From Escherichia coli (GTDB taxonomy: Bacteria > Pseudomonadota > Gammaproteobacteria > Enterobacterales > Enterobacteriaceae), in NCBI RefSeq assembly GCF_013315695.1, contig NZ_CP054353.1: a DNA stretch of 64,000 bases; one strand, written 5' to 3'. Position numbers: made by a program. Below, in pieces: positions 39,001 through 42,000 of this stretch; within the stretch, counting starts at the first letter, position 1; every line of letters starts with the position of its first letter.

Positions 39001-42000
39001 TGGCGAAGTCTTTGACACATCCTTTAAGCCGCAGGGCTCTGACAGTTTCGCGGGAGCCATCTGCAAAAATTGTGGTCACCTTGTAACTGAAGATGAGTCC
39101 TCGCAGTTCGATGACGAAATCGTTGACAATATCTTCGGTGCACTCACCAGAGACTTTCTGAAATAAAGACGCATACCGCTTAGTTACCGCTCTGATAATT
39201 CTTACCTGTCCGGCAATGGCGCTGATATCAATATAAAGCGCCATCGCTGTTTCTTTGCTGATCCCTGGACGCCTTCCATTCTGATGTTTGACTTCGCCCA
39301 CTGAGAAATCCTCTGTTTCCCCTTAACGCCGGGGTAGCGGAACTGTTTGCTGAGAACACCGTGCGGTGTCTTGATGGAGATTAATTTAGAATAACCTAAC
39401 AGATGTGGCAAGTGTTTTTTGTTAGATTGATCTAACAAGAAGAGTGAGGGAATCTAAGTGTCTGAAAGGAGTGTTATTTTATTGATTTGTTTTTACGTGC
39501 TTTAAGCATTTCTTCGAAGAGTTTATTGAAATTCTCTACTCTTGCGCGCATTTCAGACAGCAAGGCTTCCTGCTCGGAGGATGGAAGAGCATCGAATAAT
39601 TCGATCAATTCTTTGTGGCTGGGAGTTAACTCGGTTTCCACATGAAGTTCTTGTGCTGGCACTGGTGCCTTGTCTTCGTCACCAAACATTAGCCATGTAG
39701 GCGAGCACTTCAGCGCATCAGCTAAAGCAAACAACCGCTTCCCGACTGGTTGGGTTTCGTCTCTTTCCCATTGTGAAATTGTGACGTGAGCTACCCCAGC
39801 GAGGCGAGCGGCTTCTCGTTGTGTTAGGCGTAATTCTTTTCGTCGTGCCAGAACTCGCTGGCCTAGGGTTCTTGTATCCATAGTTAGGTAATTCTAATTT
39901 TTCTTGACTTAGGTATCCCGCGCACATTACTGTTAGAAATATCTAACAAGAGGGGGCTTTGATGCTTAAAGTTGACGCAATTACTTTTTTTGGCAGCAAA
40001 ACAAAGCTTGCCAATGCCGCAGGAGTGAAACTGGCAAGTGTTGCTGCATGGGGTGAACTGGTTCCTGAAGGTCGCGCGATGCGCCTGCAAGAGGCATCCG
40101 GCGGGGAACTTCAGTACGACCCCAAAGTTTATGACGAATATCGTAAGGCAAAGCGGGCGGGGCGGTTGAACAATGAAAATCACCCCTGAACAGGTTTGTG
40201 AGGCTCTGGATGCCTGGGTATGTCGACCAGGAATGACACAGGAGCAAGCGACGATATTAATCACGGAAGCATTCTGGGCTCTGAAAGAACGCCCGAACAT
40301 CGATGTTCAACGCGTCACGTTTAATGATGGCGAGGTTGATCAACGGGCGCTGGGCGTTAACCGAGTGAAGATATTCGAACGCTGGAAAGCTATCGACACC
40401 AGGGATAAGCGGAAAAAATTCACGGCGCTGATTCCGGCAATTATGGAGGCTATCCGAATTAGTGATTTCAGGTTGTATCGTGAGATCAGTGATGGAAAAA
40501 GCATTACGTACATGATCGCCGGATTAAACAAAGAATATGGCGATGTGGTGGAGTCCGGGCTGCTTTTTGCGGATCCAGCTGTTGTGGAACGTGAGACTGA
40601 CGAGCTTATAGAAAAAGCTATTGCTTTCAAGCATGCGTATCGTCAGCAATATCAATATTACTTTGCAGATAAACAAATGTCTGCCAGGGGTTTGTATGAG
40701 TATCGATGCACTACGATGGGCTAAAAAGGTGAAAACCGGCAGTTCATCCAGTAAGTCTGTATTGACCTGGCTTGCTGATATGTGCGGTGCCGATTTGTGT
40801 GCATACCCGTCTGTATCTGCACTGGCAGAAGTAACGGAACTAAACAAAAAGACTGTGCAGGACAGCTTACGACACCTGATGGAGATTGGGTTAATTGTTG
40901 ATACCGGTGAGAGAAAAGGCAGAACAAAGCAAATTGTGGTGTACCGACTTATCGGTGTAGAAGAAAGTGTTGCCGAGCCTGAATACACCCAAAAACGGGA
41001 GTCTTTAAAGGTGGGTAAAATTGGTGCTGTTAATAAAAACAGTACCGAAAATGGTTATGTTTCAGCACAAAACAGACCCAAAAACGGAACTCTTAGCTGC
41101 ATGGAAAATAACCAAAGACACCCAAATTTTCCATCAAAGACACCCAAAAACGGATCACGGAACCCAAAGGAACCCAAAGATCTAAACCCCACACATAACG
41201 CACGCGAGAGTGCTCCGACCAGTGAGCAGGAAGTTTTGTCGTTACAGGCAGCACCCCTTGTATTCCTGGATGGCCTGAGCGAACCCATCGGAAAATTTCC
41301 GATGACCGATAGCTGGTATCCGTCACGGGATTTTCGACGACGGGCTGCGTTGTGGGGGATGGCTTTGCCGGAGACAGAATTTACACCTGCTGAACTTGCC
41401 GCCTTCCGGGACTACTGGGCAGCGGAGGGGAAAGTGTTTACGCAGATTCAGTGGGAGCAGAAATTCGCCCGTCACGTAAATCACGTCAGGGCGCAGGTTA
41501 AACCAGTCAGCAAGGGGGTAAACCATGCAGCAGCACCAGGTGGCACCGCATCACGGGCAGTTCAGGAAATTCGGGCAGCACGTGAGCAGTGGGAACGTGA
41601 AAACGGATTTATCAGCGACGGAAACGGTCTGGAAGCTGTGGGAACTCATGGGGGAGGTTTATTCGAACCGCTGGACCCAGAAGAACGGGGCCGCACCTTC
41701 GAAGCTCTGGATTGCACAGATTGGCGCGATGACTGAGCAGCAAATCCGACAGGTCTGCCGCCAGTGCATGGACCGCTGCCGGGCGGGTGAAACATGGCCT
41801 CCGGACCTGGCTGAGTTTGTGGCGCTGATTTCAGAAAGCGGGGCCAATCCATTTGGCCTGACGGTGGATGCTGTGATGGAGGAGTACCGCCGCTGGCGTG
41901 ATGAGTCCTGGCGATATGACGGAAGCGACAAATATCCGTGGCCTCAGCCTGTGCTGTACCACATCTGCCTCGAAATGCGTACCAGAGGGATTGAGCGCCA

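What the first reader, a model, noticed from the sequence alone, without database searches (positions are those of the whole stretch)
39421..39947. Two GTTAGA-n4-TCTAAC palindromes bracket dicA
The palindrome appears in the dicA/dicC divergent promoter region (39932-39947) and again about 40 bp downstream of the dicA stop (39421-39436), in front of the next leftward gene. The second site could let DicA control the dicF/dicB operon from a distal operator, possibly by looping.
Basis: partly seen in the sequence, partly recalled or inferred. Interest (0 to 1): 0.3.

Follow-up and report, generated by a model that had tools for sequence, protein, structure and literature searches.

The report
DicA operators flanking dicA (OR/OL layout)
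The two palindromes are the repressor-binding sites of a Qin-type prophage switch, one at the dicA/dicC divergent promoter and one next to the promoter of the dicF/dicB cell-division-inhibitor operon, an arrangement already described for E. coli K-12.

Summary
A perfect 18-bp palindrome, TGTTAG-N6-CTAACA, occurs only twice in 64 kb (39420-39437 and 39931-39948), against 0 in 100 shuffles. Each copy has a weaker partner (39384-39401 and 39882-39899).

The region is a Qin-type immunity module: DicA, DicC, a YdaT-like protein, then ydfC, DicF RNA and DicB leftward, with Rem further right. The half-sites match K-12 operator Oc (TTGTTAGTCATAACTAACAA), which binds DicA in vivo.

Alignment with K-12 shows the downstream palindrome is not a distal operator. 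It ends 8 bp upstream of the -35 of the dicBp (lambda PL-like) promoter, and its weaker partner covers the spacer and -10.

Across 80 related loci the half-sites are invariant while the 6-bp centres drift. In four other specificity classes the motif of the divergent region recurs at the leftward promoter, and it changes together with the DicA helix-turn-helix.

So DicA control of dicBF through this site is well supported, but by ordinary promoter-proximal operators. Looping to Oc (511 bp) is neither needed nor excluded, and the distance shows no conserved helical phase.

This layout is already described for K-12 Qin. Interest is low.

The parts
39931..39948 (.). Oc-type operator, TGTTAGAAATATCTAACA, a perfect palindrome that overlaps the -10 and start region of the dicC promoter
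   Evidence: It aligns with K-12 Oc, which binds DicA in vivo (PMC3441716). The half-sites are invariant in 23 distinct class I upstream sequences.
39420..39437 (.). It is a perfect palindrome, 20 bp with its T/A flanks (39419-39438), centred about 52 bp upstream of the predicted dicBp start.
   Evidence: It aligns with the 2-mismatch K-12 copy at L001 2878-2895. Half-sites are conserved and the centre is variable in 36 distinct sequences.
39384..39401 (-). Proximal dicBp operator, TGTTAGGTTATTCTAAAT on the - strand (2 mismatches). It fills the promoter spacer and overlaps the -10.
   Evidence: Half-site position 2 switches from G to C in class II loci together with Oc.
39383..39411 (-). dicBp-equivalent (lambda PL-like) sigma-70 promoter: -35 TTGCCA at 39411-39406, a 17-bp spacer, and -10 TAAATT at 39388-39383. 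The predicted start is near 39375-39376.
   Evidence: Promoter scan. It aligns with K-12 TTGACC-17-TAATCT, and the -35 is conserved across loci. The start site is inferred, not mapped.
39882..39899 (.). Oa-like degenerate site, AGTTAGGTAATTCTAATT, directly upstream of the dicA ATG. It contains a TAGAAT -10-like hexamer on the - strand.
   Evidence: The K-12 equivalent, Oa, did not bind DicA in vivo (PMC3441716). The inner TTAG/CTAA core matches the published DicC ChIP motif (PMC11430063). Its role as a DicC site and as the dicA -10 is inferred.
39904..39933 (+). dicC promoter: -35 TTGACT at 39904-39909 and -10 TACTGT at 39928-39933, which overlaps Oc
   Evidence: Read from the sequence and from the alignment to the K-12 dicC promoter, whose start was mapped by 5' RACE (PMC3441716).
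39474..39881 (-). dicA-type repressor gene, 135 aa: an HTH_3 N-terminal domain plus a helical C-terminal domain
   Evidence: NCBIfam NF007257 scores 224 bits against a cut-off of 101, and Pfam finds HTH_3. It is 57% identical to K-12 DicA. The N-terminal domain matches the P22 c2 N-terminal domain at E = 1e-18 and rmsd 0.7 A.
39962..40189 (+). dicC (Cro-like) gene
   Evidence: NCBIfam NF007282 scores 166.7 bits against a cut-off of 130. Pfam finds P22_Cro.
39320..39376 (-). Conserved leader of the dicBp transcript
   Evidence: Nearly identical to K-12 and recognisable in distant phages.
38262..38313 (-). DicF sRNA, a downstream target of dicBp
   Evidence: Rfam RF00039 scores 76.7 bits against a gathering score of 48.
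37899..38087 (-). dicB cell-division inhibitor gene
   Evidence: Pfam DicB, E = 9.6e-40. RefSeq annotation of the 99.9%-identical locus.
46375..46623 (+). Rem antirepressor homologue, which relieves DicA repression in K-12
   Evidence: tblastn gives 92.8% identity to K-12 Rem over residues 1-83. Its function is taken from PMC10448788.

Best explanation
The two palindromes are the strongest operators of a DicA-type, P22 c2-like, non-cleavable prophage repressor. They are arranged as in any lambdoid immunity region. The right-hand site (39931-39948, Oc) overlaps the -10 and start of the dicC (Cro-like) promoter. There DicA represses dicC and, by analogy with K-12, activates its own gene. The left-hand site (39420-39437) lies immediately upstream of the -35 of the leftward early promoter dicBp, which drives ydfC, DicF, dicB and the genes beyond. 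A weaker operator (39384-39401) lies 36 bp away over the spacer and -10. A DicA dimer on the perfect distal site most likely helps a second dimer occupy the weak proximal site, so that RNA polymerase is excluded from dicBp. The Cro-like DicC probably reads the inner TTAG/CTAA core of the same sites. Repression would be lifted by the Rem antirepressor encoded at 46375-46623. What is shown here: the sites, their position relative to the promoter consensus, their conservation, and their covariation with the repressor. What is taken from K-12 experiments: DicA binding to Oc, DicA repression of dicBp, DicC binding on both sides of dicA, and the Rem effect. What is inferred: cooperativity between the two dicBp sites, the exact transcription start, and which site DicC prefers.
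For: The perfect 18-mer occurs twice in the window and 0 times in 100 shuffles. The half-sites are the same as in K-12 Oc, TTGTTAGTCATAACTAACAA, where a single A-to-C change in the half-site abolishes DicA binding in vivo (PMC3441716; K-12 scan).

Alignment with K-12 places the left site 8 bp upstream of a -35 (TTGCCA; TTGACC in K-12) and the weaker site over the spacer and -10 (TAAATT; TAATCT in K-12). The literature describes dicBp as PL-like, lying directly downstream of dicA, repressed 22-fold by DicA, with operators predicted to overlap it (PMC10448788). [quoted passage not shown]

Among 36 distinct class I downstream sequences and 23 upstream ones, half-site identity is 0.9-1.0 and centre identity is 0.5-0.8.

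Covariation:
- In 29 class II loci, Oc is CCTTAG-N6-CTAAGG, and both dicBp sites carry C instead of G at half-site position 2.
- Phage HannyBb has TTGAGTTTTCTCA at the divergent region and at the distal site, and TGAGAAAACTAA 36 bp further on.
- Phage phiES15 has TAAC-N4-GTTA on both sides of the repressor gene.
- Phage Chris1 has AAACAC repeats on both sides.
- The HTH sequence differs in each of these classes.

The family assignments are DicA, DicC, DicF, DicB and Rem.
Against: No direct binding data exist for this DicA allele. Even for K-12 I found no published footprint or EMSA of DicA on dicBp; binding there is described as 'predicted'. The transcription start is inferred from consensus hexamers. 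The only cross-check is a rough one from published RNase III coordinates. The perfect site lies upstream of the core promoter, not over it, so repression must rely on the weaker proximal site or on some other mechanism. The 36-bp centre-to-centre spacing is about 3.4 helical turns, which puts the two dimers on different faces of the helix and is not ideal for simple side-by-side cooperativity. In K-12 the imperfect sites Om and Oa did not bind DicA on their own. The covariation amounts to only a few independent switch events.
Confidence: 0.88

Rival explanations
1. One reading: the downstream palindrome works as a distal operator, and DicA bound there and at Oc bridges 511 bp into a loop that encloses dicA. 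The loop would be needed for full repression of dicBF, or for dicA autoregulation, as with lambda CI OL-OR looping.
For: Two perfect sites of equal quality lie 511 bp apart in the window, and K-12 has the same distance. Each has a weaker neighbour, giving a 2+2 layout as in lambda. The DicA model has a helical C-terminal hairpin, and its full-length fold matches include the tetrameric repressor SinR, though at high rmsd.
Against: The site abuts the dicBp -35, so no action at a distance is needed. In relatives the Oc-to-distal-site distance is 496, 509, 511, 515, 518, 519, 536 or 548-553 bp, which covers all helical phases. [quoted passage not shown] The oligomeric state of DicA is unknown.
Confidence: 0.15
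2. The site additionally acts as a roadblock. DicA bound 37 bp after a dicA gene that lacks a terminator stops read-through from the dicA promoter into the toxic dicBF operon.
For: No terminator-like site lies between the dicA stop and dicBp, and the palindrome itself is not a terminator. dicA and dicBF are co-directional. phiES15 and Chris1 do have a clear hairpin plus T-run after the repressor gene, so such a terminator can exist in this position.
Against: This is purely positional reasoning with no data on read-through. The operator layout is fully explained by promoter control. Class II loci keep the same operators even though the DNA after dicA is different.
Confidence: 0.15
3. The downstream palindrome is mainly a DicC (Cro-like) site rather than a DicA site.
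For: DicC ChIP-seq in K-12 shows binding on both sides of dicA, with a motif that contains the TTAG/CTAA core.
Against: Half-site position 2 changes together with the DicA HTH class, while DicC stays nearly identical across classes. DicA, not DicC, is required for dicBp repression in K-12. As with lambda CI and Cro, both proteins very likely share the site.
Confidence: 0.07
4. The palindrome is the intrinsic terminator hairpin of dicA, or it is a chance repeat.
For: It is an inverted repeat 37 bp after a stop codon. The RNA hairpin scores -6.9 kcal/mol with z = -2.2.
Against: The stem is A/U-rich and is followed by an A-run, with no U-tract on either strand. The loop positions vary while the arms match a known operator. 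The same arms occur at Oc, and 0 of 100 shuffles give any perfect match.
Confidence: 0.02

Closest known systems
dicA-dicC-dicBp immunity region of the cryptic prophage Qin, E. coli K-12 (operators named in Bejar et al. 1988, as cited in PMC10448788 and PMC3441716)
   Same: The gene order is the same: dicC and dicA divergent, then dicBp, ydfC, dicF and dicB. DicA is 135 aa in both. The TGTTAG/CTAACA half-sites are the same, and Oc sits in the same position over the dicC -10. Two operators flank or overlap dicBp at 35-36 bp spacing. The Oc-to-dicBp distance is 511 bp in both. The leader is the same, and Rem is present.
   Different: DicA is only 57% identical. The distal dicBp operator is a perfect palindrome here, against 2 mismatches in K-12. 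ydfA and ydfB are replaced by an opposite-strand Zn-ribbon gene. This prophage still has its replication genes, integrase and exonuclease.
Phage P22 c2 repressor with OR/OL operators
   Same: The N-terminal DNA-binding domain is homologous: E = 1e-18, 49% identity, rmsd 0.7 A to the c2-operator complex. The operators are 18-bp palindromes at a divergent PR/PRM region and at PL, with Cro sharing the sites (general knowledge of P22).
   Different: DicA lacks the S24 peptidase and RecA-cleavable C-terminal domain. It is 135 aa against 216 aa and is controlled by an antirepressor (PMC10448788). Its half-site is TGTTAG with a 6-bp centre, whereas from memory the P22 site is ATTTAAG-N4-CTTAAAT. There are two recognisable sites per promoter, 36 and 49 bp apart, rather than three closely spaced ones.
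Lambda CI OL-OR long-range looping
   Same: The repressor gene is bracketed by operator clusters at PR/PRM and at PL.
   Different: In lambda the loop spans 2.3 kb and depends on CI C-terminal-domain octamerisation. Here the distance is 511 bp, the C-terminal domain is an unrelated short helical hairpin, no oligomer data exist, and no helical phase is conserved.
Antirepressor-controlled, non-cleavable prophage repressors (Gifsy GfoR/GfhR type, as discussed in PMC10448788)
   Same: A short repressor without a RecA cleavage site, inactivated by a small antirepressor (a Rem homologue is present).
   Different: I did not test for sequence homology to the Gifsy repressors. The comparison is functional only.

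Membership tests
Qin/DicA-type prophage immunity module | A DicA-family repressor: about 135 aa, an HTH_3 N-terminal domain, and no S24 peptidase domain | tested here: met
   NCBIfam NF007257 scores 224 bits against a cut-off of 101. Pfam finds only HTH families. It is 57% identical to K-12 DicA over the full length.
Qin/DicA-type prophage immunity module | A divergently transcribed Cro-like DicC | tested here: met
   NCBIfam NF007282 scores 166.7 bits against a cut-off of 130, and Pfam finds P22_Cro. The gene lies at 39962-40189 (+), opposite dicA at 39474-39881 (-).
Qin/DicA-type prophage immunity module | An Oc operator (TGTTAG-N6-CTAACA) overlapping the dicC promoter -10 | tested here: met
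   There is a perfect site at 39931-39948. It aligns column for column with K-12 Oc and its -35 TTGACT.
Qin/DicA-type prophage immunity module | A PL-like promoter (dicBp) directly downstream of dicA, carrying operators of the same sequence | tested here: met
   The -35 and -10 consensus hexamers lie at 39411-39383, flanked or overlapped by the sites at 39420-39437 and 39384-39401. They align with K-12 and are conserved in 80 loci.
Qin/DicA-type prophage immunity module | The promoter drives an operon that contains the DicF sRNA and dicB | tested here: met
   DicF scores 76.7 bits in Rfam at 38262-38313 (-). The DicB Pfam match has E = 9.6e-40. Both are on the same strand, downstream of the promoter. 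Co-transcription itself was not tested.
Qin/DicA-type prophage immunity module | DicA protein physically binds the operators and represses dicBp | not testable with these tools
   The only support is indirect: K-12 genetics (PMC10448788, PMC3441716) and operator/HTH covariation in five classes.
Long-range operator looping (lambda CI type) | Operator clusters at two separated promoters, bound by the same repressor | tested here: met
   There are two sites at each location, 511 bp apart.
Long-range operator looping (lambda CI type) | The repressor forms tetramers or octamers that bridge the clusters | not testable with these tools
   The single-chain model shows a helical C-terminal hairpin. The weak full-length resemblance to SinR is a lead only.
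Long-range operator looping (lambda CI type) | The spacing or helical phase between the clusters is constrained | tested here: inconclusive
   Distances of 496-553 bp cover all fractional helical phases. At about 500 bp the dependence on phase is expected to be weak, so this does not exclude looping.
Intrinsic terminator | A G+C-rich stem followed by a U-tract | tested here: not met
   The stem has 2 G-C pairs out of 8 and is followed by AAAAAAC. The terminator scan did not report it.

The most novel reading that the evidence does not exclude
The perfect distal operator may do more than ordinary PL-type repression. It is centred about 52 bp upstream of the dicBp start and lies 37 bp after a dicA gene that has no terminator. 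It could nucleate DicA onto the weak -10 operator, bridge to Oc in a 511-bp loop that couples dicA autoregulation to dicBF silencing, and block read-through from dicA. Separately, DicA immunity classes appear to differ by a single outer operator base (G or C at half-site position 2). That base may be read by residue 22 at the start of HTH helix 2 (Arg in TQR, Ala in SQA). The recognition helix and the Cro-like DicC stay the same across these classes, which would be an unusual way to make hetero-immune phages.
Probability: 0.15. Interest if true: 0.35.

Novelty: already known. Interest (0 to 1): 0.12.

Why it matters
[quoted passage not shown] Knowing exactly where the operators sit relative to dicBp matters for anyone engineering or deleting these prophages, or cloning this DNA, because multicopy operators titrate DicA and kill the host. 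For this window the result is confirmatory: it is the same switch as in K-12 Qin, carried on a more complete prophage. The comparative data add modest value. They give the first cross-phage support I am aware of that the dicBp sites are read by DicA itself, and they point to residue 22 of helix 2 as a candidate specificity determinant.

Tried and rejected
- **Terminator reading:** I folded both strands and ran the terminator scan. Rejected.
- **Chance:** shuffles at 0, 2 and 3 mismatches. At 3 mismatches the motif is not enriched over the whole window (15 found, 15.6 expected), so only the four clustered sites are meaningful.
- **Direct DicA binding data at dicBp:** I searched four times. The gSELEX paper only lists the dicB operon as the target, and no mapped dicBp start was found.
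- **Helical phasing as a test of looping:** uninformative.
- **DicC covariation with operator class:** none. DicC is nearly identical in classes I and II.
- **Codon-position test** to decide between the Zn-ribbon gene and the antisense 118-aa ORF: only 6 variable sites, so no decision.
- **Conserved dicBp leader:** RNAalifold predicted only 3 pairs at -0.55 kcal/mol, and Rfam gave no credible match at E up to 10.
- **Fold search of the DicA model:** it confirmed the P22 c2-like N-terminal domain but gave only high-rmsd full-length matches, so nothing firm about oligomerisation.

Full report
**Observation.** The palindrome GTTAGA-N4-TCTAAC is present at 39421-39436 and 39932-39947 as reported. 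Extended by one base on each side it reads TGTTAG-N6-CTAACA (39420-39437 and 39931-39948). These are the only perfect copies in the 64-kb window, against none in 100 dinucleotide-preserving shuffles. Two degenerate copies lie beside them: 39384-39401 (2 mismatches) and 39882-39899 (3 mismatches). At 3 mismatches the motif is not enriched window-wide (15 found, 15.6 expected), so only this cluster is meaningful.

**Context.** The gene between the sites (39474-39881, - strand, 135 aa) is a DicA-family repressor. NCBIfam NF007257 scores 224 bits against a cut-off of 101, and the protein is 57% identical to K-12 DicA.
- To the right are dicC (P22 Cro-like, NF007282), a YdaT-like gene and replication genes.
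- To the left are an opposite-strand Zn-ribbon gene, ydfC, DicF RNA (Rfam 76.7 bits), dicB, a DUF1482 gene, an 813-aa exonuclease, an integrase and tRNA-Ser.
- A Rem antirepressor homologue lies at 46375-46623.

This is a Qin-like lambdoid prophage. RefSeq E. coli genomes contain the same 2 kb at 99.9% identity.

**What the sites are.** K-12 operator Oc is TTGTTAGTCATAACTAACAA. It binds DicA in an in vivo assay, a single A-to-C change in the half-site abolishes binding, and multicopy Oc is toxic because it titrates DicA (PMC3441716; also bioRxiv 10.1101/2025.05.13.653802). The window's right-hand palindrome aligns with Oc and with the dicC -35.

The left-hand palindrome aligns with one of two imperfect K-12 copies downstream of dicA. 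Read in the direction of dicB, the layout is:
- the distal operator;
- 8 bp;
- the -35 (TTGCCA; TTGACC in K-12);
- a 17-bp spacer;
- the -10 (TAAATT; TAATCT in K-12).

The second, weaker operator covers the spacer and -10. This is dicBp, which the literature describes as lambda PL-like. It lies immediately downstream of dicA, is repressed 22-fold by DicA, and has operators predicted to overlap it (PMC10448788). [quoted passage not shown] The second palindrome is therefore a promoter-proximal operator, not a distal one.

**Comparative test.** I fetched 80 IMG/VR loci that encode DicA relatives at 65-100% identity.
- In all loci with DicA at 72% identity or more, the TGTTAG/CTAACA arms are kept at Oc and at the distal dicBp site while the 6-bp centres differ: ATATTC, ATATTT and ACTTTT at Oc; ACCAAT, ATCAAT, ATTGAT, ATCTAT, ACTAAT, GTTGAT, TTTTAT and others at the distal site.
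- Per-column identity is 0.9-1.0 in the arms and 0.5-0.8 in the centres.
- The group at about 66% identity (29 loci) has Oc = CCTTAG-N6-CTAAGG. Both of its dicBp sites carry C instead of G at the same half-site position (ACTTAG..., TCTTAGGTTATTCTAAAT).

Cultured phages add three more classes:
- HannyBb has TTGAGTTTTCTCA in the divergent region and again next to the -35 of the leftward promoter, with TGAGAAAACTAA 36 bp further on.
- phiES15 has TAAC-N4-GTTA on both sides of the repressor gene.
- Chris1 has AAACAC repeats on both sides.

The helix-turn-helix differs in each class. Helix 2 begins TQR, SQA, TQQ, SQN or SQS, and helix 3 differs in the three phage classes. DicC, in contrast, is nearly identical in classes I and II. 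That fits a protein that reads only the shared inner TTAG/CTAA core.

**Mechanism.** The model is ordinary lambdoid control.
- At Oc, DicA occludes the dicC promoter and activates dicA. This is a K-12 result.
- At dicBp, a dimer on the perfect distal site, centred about 52 bp upstream of the predicted start, probably stabilises a second dimer on the weak site over the -10, and RNA polymerase is excluded.
- Rem would relieve the repression.

Cooperativity is inferred. The 36-bp spacing (34-37 bp in relatives) is about 3.4 helical turns, which is not ideal for simple side-by-side contacts, and the imperfect K-12 sites Om and Oa do not bind DicA on their own.

The DicA model has a P22 c2-like N-terminal domain (rmsd 0.7 A to the c2-operator complex), a disordered linker, and a helix-turn-long-helix C-terminal part. 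Full-length matches to SinR-type repressors have high rmsd and are only a lead.

**Looping.** Nothing requires it, and nothing excludes it. The Oc-to-distal-site distance is 511 bp in the window and in K-12, but in relatives it is 496, 509, 515, 518, 519, 536 or 548-553 bp, which covers every helical phase.

A terminator role is rejected. The stem is weak and A/U-rich and is followed by an A-run, and the scan finds no terminator between dicA and dicBp. That absence leaves room for a roadblock role against read-through from dicA, which is speculative.

**Verdict.** It is wrong that the operator is distal, and looping is unsupported. The arrangement is already described for K-12 Qin, so novelty and interest are low. 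The small additions are the operator/HTH covariation across five classes, and the hint that one residue in helix 2 (R22 or A22) sets the outer-base preference while DicC stays constant.

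Noticed in passing
window 39320-39376 (- strand); also L001 2938-2995, L083 1405-1470, L084, L086 1490-1545: A leader of about 57 nt directly after the predicted dicBp start (CATCAAGACACCGCACGGTGTTCTCAGCAAACAGTTCCGCTACCCCGGCGTTAAGGGG) is conserved from K-12 to the distant phages phiES15, HannyBb and Chris1. It includes a CAC...GTG hairpin and an invariant GTTC(C)G box. It could be a nut- or put-like element or a translational element. RNAalifold found no convincing consensus structure and Rfam has no match.
   Followed up: partly
window 38945-39301: The ydfA and ydfB genes of K-12 are replaced here by an opposite-strand ECs_2282-family Zn-ribbon gene (38966-39166, +), which is convergent with dicBp. 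A 118-aa ORF on the - strand (39301-38945, GTG start with an AGAGGA Shine-Dalgarno sequence) overlaps it antisense. The loci show too little variation to tell which strand is coding.
   Followed up: partly
window 39882-39899: The Oa-like site contains a good -10 hexamer, TAGAAT (39896-39891 on the - strand), ending 9 nt before the dicA ATG, with no Shine-Dalgarno sequence. The dicA mRNA may therefore be nearly leaderless, like lambda cI transcribed from PRM. The published K-12 work could not find a dicA promoter (PMC3441716).
   Followed up: no
L054-L082 versus window and L003-L053: There are two DicA specificity classes. One has T20-Q21-R22 and TGTTAG operators; the other has S20-Q21-A22 and CCTTAG operators. 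They share an identical recognition helix (VAHVTISQWERD) and a nearly identical DicC. The mosaic boundary therefore lies inside the operator region, and specificity may be set at the start of helix 2.
   Followed up: partly
window 46375-46623 (+): A homologue of the Rem antirepressor of Qin, 92.8% identical over 83 aa. The prophage therefore carries the whole DicA/DicC/Rem circuit.
   Followed up: yes
window 32680-34914: tRNA-Asn (32680-32755, -) and tRNA-Ser(CGA) (33747-33836, +) are followed by a tyrosine integrase gene (33889-34914, -). This is probably the left end and attachment site of the prophage.
   Followed up: partly
window 35176-37617 (-): An 813-aa exonuclease combines an Exonuc_VIII (RecE-like) region with a C-terminal Rv2179c-like 3'-5' exoribonuclease domain. 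In K-12 Qin the corresponding gene, ydfE, is a pseudogene.
   Followed up: no
window 39437-39474; L083 1306-1340; L086 1285-1310: The window and K-12 have no intrinsic terminator between the dicA stop and dicBp. phiES15 and Chris1 have a clear hairpin plus T-run at that position. Read-through from dicA into dicBF may therefore occur here.
   Followed up: no
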